64,000 bases of DNA from Aggregatilineales bacterium (GTDB lineage: Bacteria; Chloroflexota; Anaerolineae; Aggregatilineales; Ch27), in the NCBI GenBank assembly GCA_029976025.1, contig JARKNX010000109.1, positions 3,085 to 67,084 of the forward strand, given 5' to 3'. The notes beneath the pieces are model-generated. The model was not told the origin of the DNA. It was given only the letters and a program-made list of their open reading frames with translations, and searched no databases. This document shows positions 11,943 through 62,201 of the stretch, in pieces; within the stretch, counting starts at the first letter, position 1, and the number at the start of each line of letters is the position of its first letter. The translations under genes and the position numbers were made by a program.

Positions 11943-12434
11943 ATGTACGAAAAGAGCATCGCGCTGCTGAATAAAGCGGTTGCTGACGAGATGTCCGCCG
12001 TCCACCAGTATATGTACTTCCACTTCCACTGCGAGGACATGGGCTACGACAAGCTGGCCGGCCTGTTTATGCGGACCGCCATTGAAGAGATGGGGCATAT
12101 CGAGCTGTGCGCGGAGCGTATCCTGTTCCTGGAGGGCGAGGTGGAGATGGTCGCCTCCAGCCCGGTGGAGAAGATCCACGATGTCAAGGCCATGCTGGAG
12201 AAAGCGCGGGCCATGGAGCAGGGCAGCGTGCGCGACTACAACCTGTGGGCCAACGAATGCTCGGCCAACGCCGACGCCGGCTCCCGGAAGGTCTTCGAGA
12301 GCCTGGTCGCCGACGAGGAGCGCCACTTCAGCAACTACGATCTGGAAGTAGACCGTATCGAGCAGTTTGGCGAGAAGTACCTGGCGCTGCAATCGCTGGG
12401 GGACGGCGCGGAAGCCGCCGAAGGCGAAGACTGA
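11943..12434 (+). CDS. bfr: Bacterioferritin
   Basis: Ferritin-like four-helix signature: LNKAVADEMSAVHQYMYFH, EEMGHIE (di-iron ligands plus the Met heme ligand), ADEERH; 163 aa. Confidence 0.85.
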   Translation: MYEKSIALLNKAVADEMSAVHQYMYFHFHCEDMGYDKLAGLFMRTAIEEMGHIELCAERILFLEGEVEMVASSPVEKIHDVKAMLEKARAMEQGSVRDYNLWANECSANADAGSRKVFESLVADEERHFSNYDLEVDRIEQFGEKYLALQSLGDGAEAAEGED

Positions 12435-13814: not shown

Positions 13815-15674
13815 ATGGAGCGGGTGGGTGAGGCCGCCAGGCGCGGCGCGGTCAAGATGATCGGCGAAGGCCGCATCGGCGGCTACCTGATCGTGTGGGG
13901 TGACGACGCTCACAAGGACCTGCACGGCGAATACTTCACGCCAGCGACAGACCTGGCCCTGGACTGGTACGCCCGGCGGCCCGTGCTCTACCACCACGGG
14001 CTGGATGGCGCGATCGGCCCGGCGCTGGTCGGCGTCATGGACGCGCTGCGGGCGGATGAGGTCGGCCTGTGGGCGGAGGCCCAGCTCGACCTGCACCGGC
14101 GCTACACGCGGGCCGTGCGCGATCTGGTGGCGCGCGGGGCGCTGGCCTGGAGCTCCGGCAGCCTGCCGCATCTGGTCGAAGTCGCGCCGGACGGGCGGAT
14201 CAAACGCTGGCCGCTCGTCGAAGGCAGCCTGACCCCGACCCCGGCTGAGCCGCGGCGCACGACAGTGGGGGCCATTAAGGGCGCATACGAGGCGCTCGGC
14301 CTGGACGCGGCGCGCCTGCTGGCTGCCCCTGATGACCTGAACATGACCGACGAAGGAGAAAACGCTGTGAACCGTGACGAAATTGCCGCCGCCGTCAGCG
14401 CGGCGCTGGAAGAACGGGCCGCGCTGGTGGAGCAGACCTCCGCCGCCGAAGCGCCGCACGGGCCGGTCCGCCGCCTGCCCACCGCCGACCCGGCGGAGGC
14501 GATCAAGGCCGGGCCGCGCATCACCGTCGGCAGCCCCTACGACGGCCTGGAGGCGCTGGATATGGCCCACGGCTACGTCATGCTGCGGGCGACGAAGGGC
14601 TTTCGCGGCGTGAGCGAGACCTACGCCAACGCGCTAGCCCACAAGGTCCGCCGGGCCGGGCTGAGCGCGCTCAAGGCCGACGAGCTGAGCACATCCACCC
14701 AGGCCGGCTACGGCGACGAATGGGTGCCCGACCTGTGGAGCGCCGAGTTGTGGCGGCAGGCGCGGCTGGAAAACGTGATCCTGCCCCTGTTCCGGGCCAT
14801 CGAGATGCCCGGCAATCCTTACGAGCTGCCCATCGAAGGGGCCGACCCGACCGTCTACTACGTGGCGGAGACGAACGATGAAGCCGACCTCACGCTGGGG
14901 CCGGGCAACCCCATCCCCGACAGCAAGATCGGCTCCGGCAAGGTGACGCTGGCGGCGCGCAAGCTGGCGCTGCGGGTGGGCTTCAGCGCGGAGCTGGCCG
15001 AGGACAGCCTGGTGCCCGTGCTGGGCATGTACCGTGAGCAGGCCATGCGCGCCCTGGCCGCCGCCATCGACAGCGTCCTGCTCAACGGCGACACTGAGAC
15101 CGGCGCGACCGGCCAGATCAACAGCGACGACGCCGCGCCGCCCGCCGGGGCGACCTACCTGGCTTTCAACGGCCTGCGCAAGCTGCCGCTGGTGACGACG
15201 ACGGCCAACAGCGTCAACGCCGGGGGCGATCCGTCGCTGGCCCTGCTGCGCCAGGTCCGCTTCACCATGGCCCACCGGTACAGCGTCAACCCGTCCCACC
15301 TGGCCTGGATCGTCGATGGCGGCACGTATGCCAAGCTGCTGGGTATCAGCGAGTTCCTGACGATGGACAAGGCCGGGCCGCACGCCACCGCCCTGACCGG
15401 CCAGATCGGCATGGTGGACGGCATCCCGGTGCTGGTGTCGGCGGCGATGCCGCTGACGATGGCCGATGGCAAGGTCAACGCCAGCGGCAACACCAAAGGG
15501 CAGGCCGTGTGCGTCTACCGCCCCGGCTGGATCGTCGGCTACCGCCGCCGCGTCGCCGCCTCGGTGGATTACCTGCCGTACTACGACGCCTACCAGATGA
15601 CGGCCACGGTGCGGCTGGTGCTGGCCCGGCTGGATGCCGACGTGTCGGCGGCGCTGTACAACATCACCGTGTAG
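13815..15674 (+). CDS. Phage prohead protease (HK97/U35-S78 type) fused to an HK97-fold major capsid protein
   Basis: N-terminal ~170 aa are protease-like (GYLIVWG..D.HGEYF, AWSSGS, LVEGSLTPTPAEP). A helical linker follows. The C-terminal ~400 aa are MCP-like (YGDEWVPDLW, PIEG..PTVYYVAE, LALRVGFSAELAEDS, LLNGDTE). Confidence 0.8.
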   Translation: MERVGEAARRGAVKMIGEGRIGGYLIVWGDDAHKDLHGEYFTPATDLALDWYARRPVLYHHGLDGAIGPALVGVMDALRADEVGLWAEAQLDLHRRYTRAVRDLVARGALAWSSGSLPHLVEVAPDGRIKRWPLVEGSLTPTPAEPRRTTVGAIKGAYEALGLDAARLLAAPDDLNMTDEGENAVNRDEIAAAVSAALEERAALVEQTSAAEAPHGPVRRLPTADPAEAIKAGPRITVGSPYDGLEALDMAHGYVMLRATKGFRGVSETYANALAHKVRRAGLSALKADELSTSTQAGYGDEWVPDLWSAELWRQARLENVILPLFRAIEMPGNPYELPIEGADPTVYYVAETNDEADLTLGPGNPIPDSKIGSGKVTLAARKLALRVGFSAELAEDSLVPVLGMYREQAMRALAAAIDSVLLNGDTETGATGQINSDDAAPPAGATYLAFNGLRKLPLVTTTANSVNAGGDPSLALLRQVRFTMAHRYSVNPSHLAWIVDGGTYAKLLGISEFLTMDKAGPHATALTGQIGMVDGIPVLVSAAMPLTMADGKVNASGNTKGQAVCVYRPGWIVGYRRRVAASVDYLPYYDAYQMTATVRLVLARLDADVSAALYNITV

Positions 15675-28753: not shown

Positions 28754-28920
28754 CAGGCACTCTCTCCCGGCACTACGTTTCCTATCAAGAATATCATAGA
28801 CCAAAACGAGTCTTCTGTACAAAGCATCAATAGTTTATCTCTTTTATCGAAAATCGATCTGTGCGCCCGGCTTCTACCCATAGAAAATAGAGGGGAGGAC
28901 GCCGGTCCGCCGCCGGGCGG

Positions 28921-29433
28921 TCAGTCGAAGACGCCGGTCGGGTGGCAACCCAGATTCGCCGCGCGGGCCGCCCGTTCCAGATCGTTGAACAGCCGGGCGT
29001 GAGCTGTATCTGGCGGATACTGCACCGCCTCCGCATAGCCTTCCCGCACCAGGATTTCGTTGACGAACTGCCCGTTGACGTATACGTAACGCAGCAGGCG
29101 GCCAAAGCGGTCGGTCTCGCTGACATCGCGCACCAGGGTGACCGTCTGGCCGTCAACCAGGCGGGCGTTGGCCCGCGTCGCCTCGCGGTAGCAGGCTTCG
29201 TCGCGCTCCGGCGTGTTGATGCCGATATAGCGCACGCGGGAGCGCACGCCGTCGATCAGGACATCAATGGTGTCGCCGTCGATCACGTTCACCACGCGGC
29301 CCACTTCCCCGGCAGGGGCCGGTGAGCCGGAGCGCGGGGGCGCTTCCAGGCCGTCGATAAGCTGGCAGCCAGCCAGCAGCCAGCAGCACAGCGCGGCGGC
29401 CAGAATTATCTTGATGAGGGGGCGTGTATGCAT
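28921..29433 (-). CDS. Thermonuclease (staphylococcal nuclease-like) lipoprotein
   Basis: Lipobox LLAGC. SNase motifs VVNVIDGDTIDV, VRYIGINTPE, DRFGRLLRYVY. Confidence 0.85.
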   Translation of the reverse strand: MHTRPLIKIILAAALCCWLLAGCQLIDGLEAPPRSGSPAPAGEVGRVVNVIDGDTIDVLIDGVRSRVRYIGINTPERDEACYREATRANARLVDGQTVTLVRDVSETDRFGRLLRYVYVNGQFVNEILVREGYAEAVQYPPDTAHARLFNDLERAARAANLGCHPTGVFD

Positions 29434-29443
29434 GGCGGGTCCT

Positions 29444-29920
29444 CTACGGGGCAGGCGCATTCAATTCTTCCAGAACGGCCAGCAGCCCGGCGTTGGGCGG
29501 GATATCGCGCATGGTGCGGCCGTAATGAGCATAGCGGGCGATCCCGGCCTTATCAACGATGACCTGGGCCGGCATCCTGCCCAGCCTGAACAGGCTGACT
29601 TCCTGCCCGTACAGCTTGAGGACGGCGTGCCCGGGGTCGGGCAGGCCGATGAAGGGCAGGGCGTTCTCAGTGAAATAGCGCCTGAACCGGTCGGCCTGCT
29701 CCGGGCCGATGACGAGGATAGCGGTCTGCTGTTCGATGAAACGCTGGTAGTCCTGGCGCAACTGCGCCATGTGCGCGCGGCAGAACGGTCACTGGAAGCC
29801 GCGGTTGAAGACCAGCAGGACATTCTGCTGCCCTTTGAACTGTGCGAGCGTCACGCGCTCGCCCCGGAAGTCATCCAGCGCGAAATCCGGGGCCGGGACG
29901 TTCAGGGCTACTTCGGACAT
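29444..29920 (-). CDS. AhpC/TSA-redoxin family thiol peroxidase/oxidoreductase with an in-frame TGA at the catalytic position (candidate Sec, UxxC) or a recent nonsense pseudogene
   Basis: One continuous frame from ATG 29918-29920 to the stop at 29444. It reads MSEVALNVPAPDFALDDFRGERVTLAQFKGQQNVLLVFNRGFQ-TGA-PFCRAHMAQL... The TGA (29789-29791) sits where the family has the first Cys of CPxC. The ORF track splits this gene. Confidence 0.6.
29752..29771 (-). promoter_or_regulatory. SECIS-like hairpin downstream of the in-frame UGA
   Basis: mRNA CAUGGCGC-AGUU-GCGCCAGG: 6 contiguous bp, one A/G mismatch and a closing C-G. The apical loop AGUU contains GU and begins 25 nt after the UGA. Confidence 0.45.
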
Positions 29921-29982
29921 AGTCTGTTGTTTCCTCTGGTCAGGAGCCGGCGCGCCCTCCGCATCGGACAGGGGGCGGCGAA

Positions 29983-30702
29983 TCAGGCGTCATCGGCTTT
30001 CGATTCGGCGGAGGCGCCCTCCGGGGGCGGGGCGTTGTCCGCCTCTGGCTCAGCCGGCCTGTTCACCACCGGCTTCGGGATACGCTGAAGGCGATGCGCT
30101 GGCGACGGCGTGCCCCGGCGAATGACAGGGGCGGGGAAGGGCCGGGGTGATGGGGCCGCCGGCGGCGCTTCGGCCTCCCAGGCCTGCCGGAATTCGGCCA
30201 GCCATTCCAGTTCGGTCAGCGCCAGGCGCAGGCTGTAATCGTAGATAGCGCGTATAGCCAGCGGCTGGATCTTCGGGTTATGGGTGCGCTTGCTGCGGGC
30301 GCGGTTCAGCTCGGCCACGTGGGAGCGCAGCCGGGACTCGTAGGCGTCGAGGGCGTGGCGCACCTGATCCGGGCGCAGGTGGTGCATGTTAGCCAGCCCC
30401 AGCACGAAGTCCGAGCCGAGATCGTGGGGGGTGCTGAGCAAATCGGCGATGGCCGTCTGCAGGATACGGCGCCCGGCGTCGGTGAGCTGGTACACCTTGC
30501 GGGTCGGGCCGCGCTCGCTTGGCGCGAGTTTGCTGCTGAGCAGGCCGTCATGCTCCAGCTTATTGAGGACGTAATACACCGACGAAAAGCCAATGGCGGT
30601 CCATTCGCGCAATCCGCGCTCATCGATCGCCTGTTGTATCTGGTAGCCGTGCTGCGGCCCTTCGGCCACCAGGCTCAGGAGCACCAGTTCCGCATCGGTC
30701 AT
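29983..30702 (-). CDS. PadR family transcriptional regulator with a long C-terminal extension
   Basis: Winged-helix N-terminus LVLLSLVAEGPQHGYQIQQAI......SSVYYVLNKLEHDGLL. Confidence 0.85.
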   Translation of the reverse strand: MTDAELVLLSLVAEGPQHGYQIQQAIDERGLREWTAIGFSSVYYVLNKLEHDGLLSSKLAPSERGPTRKVYQLTDAGRRILQTAIADLLSTPHDLGSDFVLGLANMHHLRPDQVRHALDAYESRLRSHVAELNRARSKRTHNPKIQPLAIRAIYDYSLRLALTELEWLAEFRQAWEAEAPPAAPSPRPFPAPVIRRGTPSPAHRLQRIPKPVVNRPAEPEADNAPPPEGASAESKADDA

Positions 30703-30781
30703 CGGTCTCCTCCTGCCGGTCAGTCCTGCCTGCTATTCCAGTTATAGCATGCATTGCCGGGAATCACATAACAAAACCGGA

Positions 30782-30886
30782 GGAAAGGCGGGCAGCAGAG
30801 GGAGACAGGTAGCGGGCAGCCGGTGTCCTTTGCGGCCCCCGCGGTTTCCGCTTGCTGGCTGGCCGTTGCCCGCTTTTCCGCCTTTG
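30782..30886. repeat. Intergenic repeat family B: purine-rich arm plus a partly complementary pyrimidine-rich arm
   Basis: GGAAAGGCGGGCAGCAGA (30782-30799) and AGCGGGCAGCCGG (30811-30823) are identical to blocks at 52828-52845 and 52817-52829. The complementary arm is GCCCGCTTTTCCGCCTTTG (30868-30886). Confidence 0.65.
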
Positions 30887-30940
30887 ACGGGCCGGGCGTT
30901 CTCTGCTACCGTAAAAGCGCGAACAAGGAGGGGTATCGCC

Positions 30941-31291
30941 ATGGCCGATCCCGGAGGGGGTCCCTACATCAATCCTGAGCGGGCTGCGCGGGCCAGCGCC
31001 AGCCTGGCCGATCCGGCGACCGCGGCGGCGGCGGCCAACCTGTTCAAGGCGCTGGCCGACCCGACCCGGGTGCGCATCATCTCTGCCCTGTCTAACACCG
31101 ATCTGTGCGTGGCCGACCTGACAACCCTGATCGGTATGGAGCAGTCGGCGGTCTCTCACCAGTTGCACACCCTGCGCAAGTGGCGGCTGGTGCGGAGCGA
31201 GCGGCGCGGGCGGCTGGTGTACTACCGCCTGGACGATGAGCATGTCCGCGATCTGCTCCAGCGCAGCCTGGAGCATGTGCATCATTCCTGA
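30941..31291 (+). CDS. ArsR/SmtB family metalloregulator
   Basis: LFKALADPTRVRIISAL...DLCVADL...SAVSHQLHTLR. AAGGAGG lies about 8 nt upstream of ATG 30941. Confidence 0.85.
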   Translation: MADPGGGPYINPERAARASASLADPATAAAAANLFKALADPTRVRIISALSNTDLCVADLTTLIGMEQSAVSHQLHTLRKWRLVRSERRGRLVYYRLDDEHVRDLLQRSLEHVHHS

Positions 31292-31887: not shown

Positions 31888-32457
31888 TCAGGGCCTGACT
31901 CCCAGAATCAGGACCGGCACGTCAATATCGGCGACGCCTCTATGCTCCAGATCCCACACAAACTGTTCGAAATATGAGACGCCCGTTGACATCTGATCGG
32001 CCAGCTCTTTCAACGGCACGATCTCAATCCCGACCTGGATCACCCCCAGATTGCGGAAGATGGTCATCTTGGCGGCTACGTTGTATACCATGAAGGCATA
32101 CTTTCCAAATTGCACTTCCACGCCGACGTTATTTTTGACGAAATCCATTTCCCGGAAGGGGTAGGCAGCCGATTTCTGAGGAGTGTAATCCGCGGTGTAG
32201 TACCCCGTGGGATAGTCACAGTACTCCCGGTGTTTTTTCCAGCCCTTATTGTTGAACGCCTGGGCAAAAGCCTTGTTCAATAGCCGTGGACTATACAGAA
32301 TCCGCCCTGGCATTGTTTTTTCCCGACTCGGCCTGGTCAGGTATAGCCCAGCATCTATCGCAGAGATGATGGCTTCAACTTCAGCCAGCTCCTCCATATA
32401 ACTGGCCGTCAGAGCAGTCTGACCCTGATTGAATGAGTAGATTCCTCCGATACGCAT
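31888..32457 (-). CDS. Type II restriction endonuclease, BglII/BstYI family
   Basis: EMDFVKNNVGVEVQFGKY matches the BglII catalytic block DIDFGKRDTLVEVQFSNY, with the same D/E/Q spacing as BglII Asp84/Glu93/Gln95. C-terminal VPVLILG resembles BglII VPIRLVG. GC is visibly lower than the neighbours. Confidence 0.75.
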   Translation of the reverse strand: MRIGGIYSFNQGQTALTASYMEELAEVEAIISAIDAGLYLTRPSREKTMPGRILYSPRLLNKAFAQAFNNKGWKKHREYCDYPTGYYTADYTPQKSAAYPFREMDFVKNNVGVEVQFGKYAFMVYNVAAKMTIFRNLGVIQVGIEIVPLKELADQMSTGVSYFEQFVWDLEHRGVADIDVPVLILGVRP

Positions 32458-32546
32458 GAGTTCCTCCTGCTGCCCCCGATTATGAAGAGTGATATCGGGT
32501 TTATGGTAAAATACAGCGCACTACATAGTTCTGGTGAGATGCTCGC

Positions 32547-33500
32547 ATGACCAAGCAAATCCAGTTGGGTTTATTTGATGGCGTAACCCCACAAGATTTT
32601 GTGCTGGCCGATCGCTATACCCCTGAAGCGCACGTCACGCTATTTTGTGGAGACCGGTTAATCCTGCTGCGGCAAATCGCAGAATTGGGCGGGAAGGCAG
32701 AGTTGATCATTACGTCACCGCCCTACAATATCGGCAAAGAATATGAGACTCGCACCTCACTGCAAGAATACATTGAAAGCCAGCGGCAGACTATTGCCGC
32801 CTGCCTGAAAATCCTTTCGCCGACCGGCAGCATTTGCTGGCAGGTGGGACACTTCATTGATGGGCATAGCCGGTCCAAAGAGGCGTTTCCTCTTGATCTT
32901 GTCCTGTATCCTGTCTTCAAAGATTTTGGGCTGAAGCTGCGCAACCGCATTGTGTGGCAGTTTGGCCACGGCCTGCACGAAAATATCCGCTTTTCCGGCA
33001 GGCATGAGACTCTGTTGTGGTTCACCTGGGACACAGACGAGTACACTTTCAATCTTGACCCGATTCGGGTCCCCCAAAAGTATCCCGGCAAGCGGGCCTT
33101 TCGCGGGCCGCGTAAAGGACAGCCGTCCGGCAATCCCAAGGGGAAGAACCCCGGCGATGTCTGGGATATGCCCAATGTCAAATCCAACCACATCGAAAAG
33201 ACAGAGCATCCCTGTCAGTTCCCGGTTGCCCTGGTCGAGCGACTTGTGCTTGCCATGACCCATGAGGAAGATCTGGTCGTTGATCCTTACCTTGGGGTCG
33301 GTACAACGGCTGTCGCCAGCGTGCTGCACAATCGCCGCGCTGCCGGAGCCGACATCGAGAGCCGCTATCTGGAGATAGCGCGCGATCGGATCAGCCGGGC
33401 GCGAGCCGGGACGCTCCAGACCCGCCCGATGGACAGGCCCGTCTACGAACCGGGTGAGAATCTGTCTCTGGCGCAGATCCCCGATGAATGGAAAGAGTAA
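32547..33500 (+). CDS. Beta-class DNA methyltransferase (N4-cytosine or N6-adenine; the SPPY motif favours N4-C)
   Basis: Motif IV IITSPPYN precedes motif I VVDPYLGVGTT. Divergent from the BglII-like endonuclease gene, with an 89-bp spacer. Confidence 0.85.
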   Translation: MTKQIQLGLFDGVTPQDFVLADRYTPEAHVTLFCGDRLILLRQIAELGGKAELIITSPPYNIGKEYETRTSLQEYIESQRQTIAACLKILSPTGSICWQVGHFIDGHSRSKEAFPLDLVLYPVFKDFGLKLRNRIVWQFGHGLHENIRFSGRHETLLWFTWDTDEYTFNLDPIRVPQKYPGKRAFRGPRKGQPSGNPKGKNPGDVWDMPNVKSNHIEKTEHPCQFPVALVERLVLAMTHEEDLVVDPYLGVGTTAVASVLHNRRAAGADIESRYLEIARDRISRARAGTLQTRPMDRPVYEPGENLSLAQIPDEWKE

Positions 33501-59199: not shown

Positions 59200-60660
59200 T
59201 TAAGCGCCCGCATCCACCCCCCGGAACACCGCCCGCACTTCCTCCGCCGTGCCGGCCAGCCGCAGCCGGGCGGCGATCTCCACCGCCAGATCATCCGGCA
59301 CCGCGTCCACCACGAACGGGCGCTCCCCGGCCTGCCCCAGCCGCCGCAGGGCATAACGCTCCCACTGCTTCAGCTCGCGCCGGACGGCGTCAGCCTGCCC
59401 GGCCTTGATTGCCGGCCCGACTTCGCCGCTCCCGGCGTCGGCGGCCTCGTTGTCTTCGATGGAGATAGCCAGCGCCCCCGGCGCGGTATCCCGCGCCCCG
59501 GAGCCGCTGACCGGCGCGTCTCCCCAGGCGACCGGCGGCAGGTCATAAAAACGGGCGCGAATCTCGTTGATGCTCAGGACCGGGTAGGCCGTGCGGACTT
59601 CGGCCAGCCGGGTGCTGATGTCGGTCGGGCGGATGTCCTCGAAGCTCGCTTCCAGGTCTGGCCCCCAGAAGGGCAGCAGCCCCGCCGTGATCTTGCCGGC
59701 CAGCCGGACCAGCTTGGGCCACAGCGTGCGCTCGATGAAGACACGCTCGGCGATGTGAGCGTTGGCCTCGGTGGCGTTTTCGCTCCACAGGCCGGGCGGG
59801 ATGCCGAAGATGTGGAAGACCTCCTCGCGGTTGAAGCGCCGCCCGTTGAGGAAGTCCACGTCCTGCTGGCTGAGGCCGATGCCCTGCCACTGGACCGCGC
59901 CGCCGCGCAGGAACGCCGTCCGCCGCTCGCCGCCACTGTAGGACTCCCGCCAGTCGCGCTTGATGCGCTCAAAGTCGGCGTCGCTGACAAAGTCGGTGAT
60001 CGCCACGATCCCGGCGGGCACAGCCCGGTTCGCGCCGAAGGTGTCGCGGTTCCAGCGGGCCATGGCCTCGTCGCTTTGCACGGCCAGCCGGGCCGCTTCC
60101 AGCGCGCTCAGGCCGTAGTAGTCGCTGCGCGGGTGCCAGCGGCGGAAGTGGATCACCTCGGCGGCGTCCAGCGAGATGTCGCGCCCGTCGATCGTGTAAA
60201 CGTAGCCGCGCACATGCTCCCGCGCATCGGGCGCGACGGCCACCCGGTCCGGGCGCAGCGGCCAGATCTGGGCCGGCAGGCCGGCGGCATCCCCGGCCAG
60301 GAACCAGTAAGCGTTGCCGGTCAGCTCCAGCATCCCGACCGTCTGCTCGATCAGCTCGAAGCCGCTGAGGGTGGGGTTCGGCGCGGCCAGCAGGCGCTCG
60401 GCGGGGTGCGCCTCCAGCGGCAGGCGGCGCTCCCCCTCGCGGCGGGTGACGTGCACGGGGACGAGGGCGGCGGCCTCGGCGATGCGGTTGACGGCCACAT
60501 ACACCCAGGAGCTGCTCTCATAAACGGCGGCCTGACGCTCGTAGGTGGACAGGGCCGGCCAGGCGAAGGCGTTGTGCTCGGCCATCGCCGCCAGATGGGG
60601 GATGCTCTGCCCCAGGCCGCGGCGGCGGGCAGCGAACAGACGGTCGAACCATCCAGGCAT
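59200..60660 (-). CDS. Phage portal protein (HK97 family-like)
   Basis: 487 aa. Typical portal N-terminal/central pattern (SSWVYVAVNRIAEAAA, NAYWFL, ...GIPPGL...). Adjacent to the large terminase gene. Confidence 0.75.
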   Translation of the reverse strand: MPGWFDRLFAARRRGLGQSIPHLAAMAEHNAFAWPALSTYERQAAVYESSSWVYVAVNRIAEAAALVPVHVTRREGERRLPLEAHPAERLLAAPNPTLSGFELIEQTVGMLELTGNAYWFLAGDAAGLPAQIWPLRPDRVAVAPDAREHVRGYVYTIDGRDISLDAAEVIHFRRWHPRSDYYGLSALEAARLAVQSDEAMARWNRDTFGANRAVPAGIVAITDFVSDADFERIKRDWRESYSGGERRTAFLRGGAVQWQGIGLSQQDVDFLNGRRFNREEVFHIFGIPPGLWSENATEANAHIAERVFIERTLWPKLVRLAGKITAGLLPFWGPDLEASFEDIRPTDISTRLAEVRTAYPVLSINEIRARFYDLPPVAWGDAPVSGSGARDTAPGALAISIEDNEAADAGSGEVGPAIKAGQADAVRRELKQWERYALRRLGQAGERPFVVDAVPDDLAVEIAARLRLAGTAEEVRAVFRGVDAGA

Positions 60661-60779
60661 CGGATTCTCCTTTTGTAGGACCTCACCCCCTGACCCCTTC
60701 TCCGGCAATGACCTCACCCCCTGACCCCCTCTCCGTTGACGGAGAAGGGGGAGCCGGGCGCAACGAGGAAGGGATGAGG

Positions 60780-61955
60780 TCAGGCGAAGCTCACCGGGCT
60801 GCCCATGCGCTGTACGCCCAGCCAGCCCAGCGCCGTCGCAATCACGGTGTCGTCGTGGCCGCCGGAGGGCGCGCCGTAGCGGTACAGGCCGGAAGGCAGC
60901 CGCTCCAGGGTGTAGGCGGCCAGCTCCCCGCGCAGGACAGGGTCATCCAGCAGAGTGACCTCGCCGCGCTCGACAGCCAGCGCCAGCGCCTCAATCAGCG
61001 GCCCCTTGCTCCGGGCGGTGGTGTTGAAGGGGCGCACGGGCAGGCCGCTCTGCTGCAGGGCTTCGATGTTGACGCTGCCGATGCTGTTGGCCTCCGCCCA
61101 GACGATATCGGGCCTCCACCGCTCAACCAGCGCCCGCAGCCGGTCGCGCTGCTGCGCCCAGCCCACCTGGCGGAAGCGATCCAGGGCGACCATCCGCCGC
61201 CGCCCGGCCTCGAACACGGCGAAGACGGTGTAATCGTCCACGCGGCCCCAGTCGATGCCGACGGTGTAGCGCGCGCCGGGGCGGGGGCCTGCTTCCGCCG
61301 CCGCCGTGCAGGCGGCCTCGAGGTCGCGGAAGACCTGCCCGGCATCCTCGATGAAGGCCGCCTCGTACTCCTGCCGGAACCAGCGATCGGGCATCTCCAG
61401 GCGGGCGGCGTCCACCTCCTCCGGCGCGATCAGGGGGTTGCCCAGCGTGGGATGGCTGAAGCTCTGCCAGTCCGGCTGGAGCGGGTCCAGGCCGAGCCGG
61501 TACAGGCGGTGGAACCAGTTCAGGCCGTTGGGGGTGGAAAGGAACAGGGCGCGCCCCCGCCGGTCGGAGAGGGCGGGGCGGATGGCCCCGGTCCACACTT
61601 CCTCCGGCATGAAGGCGGCCTCGTCCAGCACGGCCAGGTCCAGGCCCGCGCCGCGCAGGGCGTCCGGCTCGTGGCCGCTGCGGACCTGAATCTGGCCGCC
61701 GCCGGGCAGGACCACCCGCCGCCGCGTTTCGTCTTTTTCCACCCAGAGTCCGGCCAGGCTGCCCTTCAGGCTCCGCCAGACATCGTCGGCCATGCCGTAG
61801 GTCGGCGCGATCCACCAGCCGGAGCCGCCCAGGCGGGCCGTATCAAGCAGCGCCACCTTGCCCAGCTCCGTCTTGCCCCACCGCCGGCCGCAGGCCACGA
61901 CGCGGAAGCGCGCCGGGTGGGCCATCACCGCCGCCTGCCCAGGGTGGAGCATCAT
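60780..61955 (-). CDS. Phage terminase large subunit
   Basis: Walker A-like ACGRRWGKTE, Walker B-like LAVLDEAAF, and a C-terminal nuclease-like region with DD/D residues (GIDWGRVDDYTV, GGHDD). Start is approximate. Confidence 0.75.
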   Translation of the reverse strand: MMLHPGQAAVMAHPARFRVVACGRRWGKTELGKVALLDTARLGGSGWWIAPTYGMADDVWRSLKGSLAGLWVEKDETRRRVVLPGGGQIQVRSGHEPDALRGAGLDLAVLDEAAFMPEEVWTGAIRPALSDRRGRALFLSTPNGLNWFHRLYRLGLDPLQPDWQSFSHPTLGNPLIAPEEVDAARLEMPDRWFRQEYEAAFIEDAGQVFRDLEAACTAAAEAGPRPGARYTVGIDWGRVDDYTVFAVFEAGRRRMVALDRFRQVGWAQQRDRLRALVERWRPDIVWAEANSIGSVNIEALQQSGLPVRPFNTTARSKGPLIEALALAVERGEVTLLDDPVLRGELAAYTLERLPSGLYRYGAPSGGHDDTVIATALGWLGVQRMGSPVSFA

Positions 61956-62201
61956 GGACCGCACCGTTATAGACGAACTCCCAGCGGATGACGCGGTCGG
62001 AGGCCGGATCGGGGTTCGCCTGGCGTTGGAAGGACTCATCCGCTTCGAGCATCCTGATCACTTCGACGGCGGTCTTGAGCGCCGCGGCGGCCTGGTGCAG
62101 CGGGGCCTCCGCGATCTTGTCGGGCAGCGCTTCGGCCAGAGCCAGCGCGCTCTGGCGCAGGGCGGCGGCGATGGCCGCGTCGGACGGGGCCGGTTTGCGC
62201 A
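61843..62201 (-). CDS. Small helical hypothetical protein upstream of the terminase (possible small terminase/accessory); its 3' end overlaps the terminase gene in another frame
   Basis: ATG 62199-62201 is preceded by GGAGG. The N-terminal ~80 aa are Ala/Leu-rich and helical. The last ~37 codons overlap the predicted terminase start. Confidence 0.3.

What the first reader, a model, noticed from the sequence alone, without database searches (positions are those of the whole stretch)
29444..29920. In-frame TGA replaces the catalytic Cys of a redoxin: candidate UxxC selenoprotein with a SECIS-like hairpin
On the minus strand, one uninterrupted frame runs from ATG 29918-29920 to the stop at 29444 (159 codons). 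It encodes a typical AhpC/TSA-redoxin N-terminus (PAPDFAL.DF.GE.VTLAQFKGQQNVLLVFNRGFQ). A TGA follows at 29789-29791, then PFC. This is exactly where the family carries the first Cys of the CPxC redox motif, so read-through would give U-P-F-C. In the mRNA, 18-37 nt after the UGA, a hairpin CAUGGCGC-AGUU-GCGCCAGG is present. Its apical loop contains GU and starts 25 nt after the UGA, which is the geometry of bacterial SECIS elements. The ORF track splits this gene into a 108-aa fragment that would lack the catalytic residue. The alternative is a recent nonsense mutation, since TGC to TGA needs only one substitution.
Basis: partly seen in the sequence, partly recalled or inferred. Interest (0 to 1): 0.7.

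Follow-up and report, generated by a model that had tools for sequence, protein, structure and literature searches.

The report
Selenocysteine redoxin gene with SECIS hairpin
The in-frame TGA is a conserved recoding site, most likely for selenocysteine, in a peroxiredoxin-like UxxC redox protein of a Chloroflexota-type bacterium, a kind of selenoprotein already known but routinely mis-annotated as a truncated gene.

Summary
On the minus strand, 29920..29444 is one 159-codon frame with a single TGA at 29791..29789 (GFQ-TGA-PFC). It has an AhpC/TSA domain.

All 80 closest orthologues from different species genomes, mostly Anaerolineae/Chloroflexota MAGs, carry TGA at the same column. None has TAA or TAG. 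The frame is open and conserved at the amino-acid level on both sides.

More distant homologues carry Cys there (CPFC, CPYC and similar). Synonymous sites are saturated across the gene, except in codons +7 to +11 (AUG GCG CAG UUG CGY). These form the hairpin UGGCGC-AGUU-GCGCCA, 25 nt after the UGA, at -10 kcal/mol. It meets every published bacterial SECIS criterion.

TGA is an ordinary stop in 24 of 58 predicted window genes, so code reassignment is excluded. A nonsense mutation or sequencing error is excluded by the conservation.

Not shown:
- Sec machinery in this genome. None is in the 64-kb window.
- Actual selenium incorporation.

The gene fits the known "Prx-like thiol:disulfide oxidoreductase (UxxC)" selenoprotein family, so it is a new member of a known kind. 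Public gene calls split it or read the TGA as Trp.

The parts
29444..29920 (-). Complete selenoprotein gene: 158 residues plus stop, a Prx-like/AhpC-TSA redoxin with a U44-P-F-C47 motif
   Evidence: Searches show the frame. Pfam AhpC-TSA scores 8.6e-20. Orthologues align from residue 1 to about 155. All 81 frames are open for 42 codons before the TGA and 110-130 codons after it.
29789..29791 (-). In-frame TGA, inferred Sec codon (residue 44)
   Evidence: The codon is TGA in 81/81 sequences, never TAA or TAG. Cys occupies this column in homologues.
29780..29782 (-). TGC codon for Cys47, partner of Sec in the UxxC motif. It aligns with the peroxidatic Cys of AhpE.
   Evidence: Cys is invariant here, TGC 79 and TGT 2. 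The alignment to M. tuberculosis AhpE is.
29752..29771 (-). SECIS-like hairpin. The core stem is 29769..29764 paired with 29759..29754, the loop AGUU is 29763..29760, and an outer C-G pair joins 29771 and 29752 across one mismatch.
   Evidence: Folds are (-10.0 kcal/mol). 99.3% of cells are paired in 81 sequences, with only compatible changes. There is no synonymous variation in codons +7..+11. Third-position identity is 0.93 here against 0.44 elsewhere.
29932..29936 (-). Putative Shine-Dalgarno GAGGA, 11 nt before the ATG
   Evidence: Read directly from the sequence. This is an inference only.

Best explanation
The segment 29920..29444 (minus strand) is one gene for a 158-residue thioredoxin-fold, peroxiredoxin-like redox protein. 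Its active-site motif is Sec44-Pro-Phe-Cys47.

Proposed decoding (inferred). The UGA at 29791..29789 is not a stop here. A hairpin in the coding sequence 18-37 nt downstream (UGGCGC-AGUU-GCGCCA, with G and U in the apical loop) acts as a bacterial SECIS. It would recruit SelB carrying Sec-tRNA(Sec) to the ribosome, so selenocysteine is inserted and translation continues to the TAG at 29446..29444.

Proposed chemistry (inferred). Sec sits just before the first residue of the active-site helix, the position of the attacking Cys of a CxxC thioredoxin-type centre. It would cycle with Cys47 between selenolate/thiol and selenenylsulfide. The protein would therefore work as a thiol:disulfide oxidoreductase, or a thiol-dependent reductase of an oxidised substrate.

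Shown here:
- conservation of the recoded UGA
- an RNA-level constraint on the hairpin
- Sec/Cys homologue pairs
- the fold

Inferred only:
- SelB/tRNA(Sec) dependence
- selenium content
- substrate
For: 1. Conserved TGA. The codon is TGA in 81/81 sequences, the window plus 80 species-representative genomes. It is never TAA or TAG.

2. Same selection on both sides. The 36 codons before the TGA have mean amino-acid identity 0.59 and synonymous third-position identity 0.44. Codons +12..+60 have 0.60 and 0.44. No other stop occurs.

3. Translated spacer. Codons +1..+6, between the TGA and the next ATG, are conserved as P-F-C-x-x-H with free Pro codons. They are therefore translated in this frame.

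4. Cys homologues.
- Close: CPFC in P0011, P0016, P0036, P0051, P0059 and P0060.
- Distant, at 30-50% identity: CPFC, CPYC, CPLC and CSHC.

5. Hairpin under RNA-level constraint.
- Ala is GCG in 79/79, Gln CAG in 81/81 and Leu UUG in 81/81. At other Leu columns CUG dominates.
- Arg is only CGC (67) or CGU (14), a G-C to G.U change.
- All other variation in the helix keeps pairing. 99.3% of cells are paired, against 25-58% when the partner columns are slid.

6. Fit to the published bSECIS model (PMC13188914). All four criteria are met:

| Criterion | Published | Observed |
|---|---|---|
| Apical loop | 3-9 nt | 4 nt |
| Upper stem | 4-16 bp | 6 bp |
| G in the first two loop positions | required | AGUU |
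| UGA-to-loop spacing | 16-37 nt | 25 nt |
| MFE | <= -7.5 kcal/mol | -10.0 kcal/mol |

7. Decay in Cys forms. The hairpin is degraded in 3 of 6 Cys-form genes (L081, L087, L088) and in only 2 of 81 Sec-form genes. This is as expected if it is needed only with UGA.

8. TGA is a normal stop. It terminates 24 of 58 predicted genes in the window.

9. Fold. The AlphaFold model of a Cys-form orthologue has pLDDT 89.5. It is a Prx/BCP/ResA-type thioredoxin fold, with TM 0.82-0.84 to BCP1 and AhpE. The active-site residue lies immediately before helix 45-56.

10. Phylum. Chloroflexi/Chloroflexota are reported to have tRNA(Sec) and selenoproteins (PMC5389517; PMC1794560; PMC13582414).
Against: - No selA, selB, selD or tRNA(Sec) is in the 64-kb window. 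This says little for a genome of several Mb. It does leave the machinery unverified for this organism.
- The helix shows essentially no two-sided compensatory changes: 1 cell of 567, no better than shuffles. Structural support therefore rests on invariance at synonymous sites and on compatible one-sided changes.
- A 71-nt fold is not more stable than shuffled sequence.
- No Rfam family matches.
- Three Cys-form genes still carry an intact hairpin (L082, L083, L085). The hairpin alone therefore does not prove current Sec decoding.
- No selenium or protein-level data exist.
Confidence: 0.9

Rival explanations
1. The UGA is recoded with the help of the same hairpin, but Cys (or a Cys/Sec mixture) is inserted. 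This would use a tRNA(ReC)/SelC*-type tRNA instead of, or alongside, tRNA(Sec).
For: PMC13582414 cites Vargas-Rodriguez et al. 2018: tRNA(ReC) decodes UGA as Cys in the presence of a downstream SECIS. That paper notes this as a limit of purely bioinformatic Sec calls. Nothing in the sequence distinguishes Sec from Cys insertion.
Against: In the hydrogenase genome set of that paper, tRNA(ReC) was found in about 2% of the Sec-type genomes that lack the UXXU motif and about 17% of all Sec-type genomes. Keeping a costly UGA plus hairpin in 81/81 species is hard to explain if plain UGC would give the same protein. Cys-forms are the minority among close relatives.
Confidence: 0.05
2. The TGA is a real stop. 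Either the locus is a pseudogene made by a recent TGC>TGA mutation or an assembly error, or it makes two products: a 43-aa peptide and a 108-aa protein re-initiated at ATG 29770.
For: TGC to TGA is a single substitution. Gene callers report the 108-aa ORF. An ATG lies 7 codons after the TGA. UGA/SECIS sites are known to partition between recoding and termination (PMC4513850, title and abstract seen), so some termination product is likely even for a true selenoprotein.
Against: The same TGA occurs in 80/80 orthologues from independent assemblies. Amino-acid conservation is in frame on both sides and in the 6 codons between the TGA and the ATG. TAA or TAG is never used. The 108-aa product would lack three strands and the whole redox motif of the fold.
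Confidence: 0.02
3. TGA is reassigned genome-wide to Trp or Gly (code 4 or 25), and the residue is W, as many database entries show.
For: 49 of the 120 closest database proteins have W at this column.
Against: Those W residues are TGA codons read with an alternative table on short contigs. This was verified for P0009 = L031 and P0001 = L089. In the window, TGA ends 24 of 58 predicted genes. Only one in-frame TGA in the window has coding signature on both sides.
Confidence: 0.01

Closest known systems
Prx-like thiol:disulfide oxidoreductase selenoproteins (PF00578, UxxC/UxxU; 'Prx-like 1' of the GOS study). First predicted in Geobacter, Syntrophus and Desulfotalea.
   Same: - The domain is the same (PF00578).
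- The Sec-containing motif is the same (UxxC).
- The size is small and the protein has a single domain.
- The SECIS lies in the coding sequence just after the UGA.
- Abundant CxxC homologues exist (PMC13188914; PMC2398784; PMC1794560).
   Different: - This clade is centred on Anaerolineae/Chloroflexota, not Deltaproteobacteria.
- Direct similarity to the reference member WP_010940744.1 could not be measured here.
- The family is listed as 'predicted with high confidence', not experimentally verified.
NCBIfam NF040769, SelL-related redox protein (relatives of the eukaryotic selenoprotein SelL, which PMC2398784 describes as a Prx-like protein)
   Same: It is the best NCBIfam match (8.1e-22, residues 9-108) and shares the Prx-like fold with a redox motif at the helix start.
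   Different: The score is 77.7 bits, below the curated cut-off of 120, and covers only the first 102 of 173 profile positions. The protein is not a member by NCBI's criterion. From my own knowledge, not checked here: SelL carries UxxU, whereas this protein has UxxC.
Peroxiredoxins of the BCP/PrxQ and AhpE types (TxxC peroxidatic motif), and Sec-containing Prx (TxxU)
   Same: The overall fold is the same (TM 0.82-0.84). Cys47 aligns with the peroxidatic Cys of AhpE. A conserved Arg (R115) precedes the beta-strand, as in Prx.
   Different: Sec replaces the conserved Thr of TxxC, giving a thioredoxin-like UxxC centre. No match reaches the curated cut-offs: PRK09437 scores 42 against 140, and PrxQ scores 30.5 against 260. 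In Sec-Prx the Sec occupies the peroxidatic position (TxxU), not this one.
E. coli fdhF-type bacterial SECIS / consensus bSECIS model
   Same: It is a stem-loop inside the ORF. The loop begins 25 nt after the UGA, the loop is small with G then U, and the upper stem is G+C-rich.
   Different: The element is a very short, simple hairpin (6 bp, tetraloop). No bulged U and no lower stem were seen. SelB binding was not tested.

Membership tests
Bacterial selenoprotein gene (Sec-UGA + bSECIS) | In-frame UGA with conserved, in-frame coding sequence on both sides across species | tested here: met
   The codon is TGA in 81/81 sequences. Flanks are open and conserved, and their synonymous sites are free.
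Bacterial selenoprotein gene (Sec-UGA + bSECIS) | Homologues with Cys aligned to the UGA | tested here: met
   CPFC, CPYC and CPLC forms occur among close and distant homologues.
Bacterial selenoprotein gene (Sec-UGA + bSECIS) | Stem-loop meeting the bSECIS constraints: loop 3-9 nt, stem 4-16 bp, G in the first two loop positions, 16-37 nt after the UGA, MFE <= -7.5 kcal/mol | tested here: met
   The criteria come from PMC13188914. Observed: 4-nt loop AGUU, 6-bp stem, 25-nt spacing, -10.0 kcal/mol. The element is conserved in 79/81 sequences.
Bacterial selenoprotein gene (Sec-UGA + bSECIS) | Compensatory (two-sided) base-pair changes in the SECIS helix | tested here: inconclusive
   The helix is almost invariant. 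Only one-sided compatible changes occur (C-G/U.G 32, U-A/U.G 7, G-C/G.U 14). One cell has a two-sided change, no better than shuffles.
Bacterial selenoprotein gene (Sec-UGA + bSECIS) | selA, selB, selD and tRNA(Sec) present in the same genome | not testable with these tools
   None is in the 64-kb window. The rest of the genome is not available. Only phylum-level literature support exists.
Bacterial selenoprotein gene (Sec-UGA + bSECIS) | Selenium actually incorporated at the UGA | not testable with these tools
   This needs 75Se labelling or mass spectrometry.
Prx-like thiol:disulfide oxidoreductase selenoprotein family | PF00578 (AhpC/TSA) domain | tested here: met
   The score is 71.4 bits against a cut-off of 26, E=8.6e-20.
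Prx-like thiol:disulfide oxidoreductase selenoprotein family | Sec in a UxxC (or UxxU) motif | tested here: met
   The motif is U44-P-F-C47. C47 is invariant.
Prx-like thiol:disulfide oxidoreductase selenoprotein family | Sequence similarity to the reference member (WP_010940744.1, Geobacter sulfurreducens) | not tested
   The reference sequence could not be fetched by accession with these tools.
NCBIfam NF040769 SelL-related redox protein | Score at or above the curated cut-off (120 bits) | tested here: not met
   The score is 77.7 bits with partial profile coverage of 2-102 out of 173.
Canonical peroxiredoxin (BCP/PrxQ) | Score above the curated cut-off of the PrxQ/BCP models, and a TxxC peroxidatic motif | tested here: not met
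   PRK09437 scores 42 against 140, and PrxQ scores 30.5 against 260. Sec occupies the Thr position of TxxC.

The most novel reading that the evidence does not exclude
In this Anaerolineae-centred clade, the invariant 16-nt hairpin might serve a non-canonical decoding system. One candidate is the unusual 8/4-type tRNA(Sec) reported in Chloroflexi. Another is a tRNA(ReC)/SelB*-like pair inserting Cys at UGA. In either case the residue at position 44 would depend on selenium supply or on which tRNA is present, rather than being a fixed Sec.
Probability: 0.06. Interest if true: 0.6.

Novelty: new member of a known kind. Interest (0 to 1): 0.3.

Why it matters
The result corrects an annotation. The locus is one 158-residue selenoprotein gene, not a 43-aa ORF plus a truncated 108-aa "peroxiredoxin".

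The same error is systematic in public data. Of the 120 closest database proteins, 59 are post-UGA fragments and 49 show a spurious Trp. At least several hundred species genomes carry relatives.

It also marks the source organism, a Chloroflexota/Anaerolineae-like bacterium, as a probable selenocysteine user.

Finally, it provides a very clean, short natural SECIS (6 bp with an AGUU loop) whose sequence requirements could be tested.

It does not reveal a new mechanism or a new family.

Tried and rejected
- Rfam scan of the whole window: no family at gathering score. Rfam apparently has no model that captures this element.
- tRNA search in the window and in all fetched loci: no tRNA(Sec). The only tRNA found was a tRNA-Pro in L076.
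- Pfam annotation of nearly all predicted window genes: no SelA, SelB or SelD domains.
- Synteny. None of the window's immediate neighbours on either side recurs next to the 80 orthologues. These include the PadR regulator upstream and the SNase-type nuclease downstream. Only three more distant window genes had any match (in 1, 5 and 5 loci). The commonest neighbour cluster occurs in only 15 of 80 loci. Context therefore gives no functional clue.
- Covariation test: uninformative because the helix is nearly invariant.
- Metagenome scan for Cys-forms with a degenerate FNRxFxCPFCxxHMAQLR pattern: only 3 loci returned. The Sec-versus-Cys hairpin comparison therefore rests on 6 Cys-form genes.
- Linking Sec machinery to orthologue-bearing complete genomes (for example Leptolinea sp. 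HRD-7): not possible.
- Promoter/terminator consensus scan of 28800-31000: nothing informative.
- Rejected readings: pseudogene or sequencing error, code 4/25 reassignment, and two separate ORFs. See the rival explanations.

Full report
**1. Observation**

The minus strand from 29920 to 29444 reads as one 159-codon frame. It starts at ATG 29920..29918 and ends at TAG 29446..29444.

The only interruption is TGA at 29791..29789, in the context NVLLVFNRGFQ-TGA-PFCRAHMAQLRQ. The mechanical ORF list splits it into a 43-aa and a 108-aa ORF.

With Cys in place of the stop, the protein matches two Pfam families above their cut-offs:
- AhpC-TSA: E=8.6e-20, 71.4 bits against 26.
- Redoxin: 49 bits against 26.6.

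It has a 6-bp stem UGGCGC/GCGCCA and the tetraloop AGUU. The loop begins 25 nt after the UGA. An outer C-G pair lies across one A x G mismatch.

**2. Is the TGA conserved?**

A protein search with the Cys-substituted sequence gave 6225 hits. The 120 best break down as follows:

| Form at the TGA column | Count |
|---|---|
| ~105-aa fragment starting at the Met seven codons after the TGA | 59 |
| Trp | 49 |
| Cys | 6-7 |
| Arg | 2 |
| Leu | 1 |

The Trp forms are TGA codons read with an alternative table. This was verified on DNA for P0009 (= L031) and P0001 (= L089).

A scan of one genome per species found 577 relatives. The best 80 loci were fetched. They are mostly Anaerolineae/Chloroflexota MAGs, plus the complete genomes Leptolinea sp. 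HRD-7 and Candidatus Leptofilum sp.

All 80, and the window, have a stop at exactly this column. In all 81 it is TGA, never TAA or TAG. In every sequence the frame is open for 42 codons upstream and 110-130 codons downstream.

**3. Is the upstream part translated together with the downstream part?**

| Region (codons relative to the TGA) | Mean pairwise amino-acid identity | Third-position identity at same-residue codons |
|---|---|---|
| -36..-1 | 0.59 | 0.44 |
| +12..+60 | 0.60 | 0.44 |

Both halves are therefore under the same protein-level selection.

The six codons between the TGA and the next ATG encode invariant P, C and H. All four Pro codons are used. They are therefore translated in this frame. 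This excludes a pseudogene and argues against a two-ORF reading.

**4. The hairpin**

Synonymous sites are saturated along the whole gene. All 4 Ala, 6 Leu and 5-6 Arg codons are used at conserved columns. Codons +7..+11 are the exception:

| Codon | Residue | Usage |
|---|---|---|
| +7 | Met | AUG |
| +8 | Ala | GCG 79/79 |
| +9 | Gln | CAG 81/81 |
| +10 | Leu | UUG 81/81, although CUG dominates at other Leu columns |
| +11 | Arg | CGC 67, CGU 14 |

Third-position identity there is 0.93, against 0.44 elsewhere.

On the 81-sequence alignment, 99.3% of cells in the 7-pair helix are standard pairs. When the 3' partners are slid, 25-58% are paired.

All variation is pairing-compatible and one-sided: C-G/U.G, U-A/U.G and G-C/G.U. 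True compensatory double changes are essentially absent. The support is therefore an RNA-level constraint, not covariation.

Two sequences deviate. L061 has one mismatch. L060 has Ala>Arg and Gln>Arg substitutions that re-create a 5-bp stem in a shifted register.

The hairpin alone folds at -10.0 kcal/mol. It satisfies every constraint of the published consensus bacterial SECIS model (PMC13188914):
- 3-9 nt loop
- 4-16 bp upper stem
- G in one of the first two loop positions, usually followed by G or U
- 16-37 nt spacing from the UGA
- MFE <= -7.5 kcal/mol

**5. Sec/Cys pairs and hairpin decay**

Cys forms exist among close relatives (CPFC). Among distant ones at 30-50% identity the motifs are CPFC, CPYC, CPLC and CSHC. 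This is the classical signature of a selenoprotein family.

Six Cys-form genes were read at the DNA level:
- Intact hairpin, plausibly recent Sec-to-Cys conversions: L082, L083, L085.
- Lost or weakened hairpin: L081 (GCA), L087 (UCU CAA CUG CGG), L088 (CGA).

By comparison, 2 of 81 Sec forms deviate. The sample is small but points the expected way.

**6. Excluding reassignment**

The window has 66% G+C and about 58 predicted genes. TGA terminates 24 of them. A scan for in-frame TGA with coding composition on both sides finds only the site at 29789.

**7. Machinery**

The window holds no tRNA gene and no SelA, SelB or SelD domain. For 64 kb out of a genome of several Mb this is uninformative.

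I could not test the remainder of the genome or the complete genomes of relatives.

The literature places the Sec trait in the phylum:
- Selenoproteins in Chloroflexi (PMC1794560).
- An 8/4-type tRNA(Sec) in Chloroflexi (PMC5389517).
- Sec-containing hydrogenases in Chloroflexota (PMC13582414).

The last paper also recalls that tRNA(ReC) can decode UGA plus SECIS as Cys. That is kept as a minor rival.

**8. What the protein is**

Sequence comparison with solved structures gives M. tuberculosis AhpE, BCP and ResA as the nearest. In the AhpE alignment, Cys47 matches the peroxidatic Cys. The Sec matches the Thr of the Prx TxxC motif.

The centre is therefore thioredoxin-like, UxxC. It is not the TxxU of Sec-peroxiredoxins.

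An AlphaFold model of the Cys-form orthologue P0016 has pLDDT 89.5 and pTM 0.86. It has a Prx/BCP/ResA-type fold, with TM 0.82-0.84 to BCP1 and AhpE. The active-site residue lies directly before helix 45-56.

NCBIfam's best match is the SelL-related redox protein family. The score of 77.7 bits is below the cut-off of 120, and no curated model is passed.

The defining features given in the literature for the "Prx-like thiol:disulfide oxidoreductase" selenoprotein family are PF00578 and UxxC. Both are met.

**9. Context**

In the window the gene lies 62 nt downstream of a PadR-type regulator (29983..30702). It lies 10 nt upstream of a lipoprotein-like SNase nuclease (28921..29433). All three are on the minus strand. 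None of the window's immediate neighbours recurs at the 80 orthologous loci. The substrate therefore remains unknown.

**10. Verdict**

This is a selenocysteine codon with a coding-region SECIS in a UxxC Prx-like redoxin.

The kind is known, so novelty is modest. The practical value is the corrected gene model and the evidence of widespread mis-annotation of this clade.

Confidence that this is a genuine recoded UGA is about 0.97. Confidence that it is Sec inserted via a canonical SelB/SECIS route is about 0.9.

Noticed in passing
related proteins P0001-P0120; loci L031, L089: Public gene calls handle this family badly. 59 of the 120 closest entries are fragments starting after the TGA. 49 show Trp at the TGA because a TGA=Trp table was applied to short contigs.
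   Followed up: yes
L082:3086-3138, L083:3126-3178 (minus), L085:737-1219: Cys-form (TGY) orthologues still carry the intact SECIS-like hairpin, which looks like a fossil of recent Sec-to-Cys conversion. In L081, L087 and L088 the hairpin has decayed.
   Followed up: partly
proteins P0012, P0061 (Arg) and P0032 (Leu): Rare homologues have Arg or Leu at the Sec column. Each could arise from TGA by one substitution (CGA, TTA). They may be inactive variants or read errors on short contigs.
   Followed up: no
L060:2951-3010: One orthologue has Ala>Arg and Gln>Arg substitutions that break the usual stem. They re-create a 5-bp stem with a 6-nt loop in a shifted register.
   Followed up: partly
window 11943-12434 (+) and 13815-15674 (+): A ferritin-like gene lies about 1.4 kb upstream of a 619-aa ORF whose C-terminal half matches the HK97-type Phage_capsid family. 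This could be a prophage remnant or an encapsulin-like compartment.
   Followed up: no
window 59200-62039 (-): A phage portal gene (PF04860, 2.4e-63) and a terminase large-subunit-like gene lie side by side, far from the capsid-like ORF. They are probably part of a prophage or its remnant.
   Followed up: no
window 31888-33500: A BglII-type restriction endonuclease and an N6/N4 DNA methyltransferase are divergently arranged. Their GC3 is about 0.64, against about 0.85 in the surrounding genes. This is probably a horizontally acquired restriction-modification island.
   Followed up: no
window 28921-30702 (-): A PadR regulator, the selenoprotein gene and an SNase-type nuclease with a lipoprotein-like signal (LLAGC) are tightly spaced on one strand and could be co-transcribed. 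The arrangement is not conserved in relatives.
   Followed up: partly
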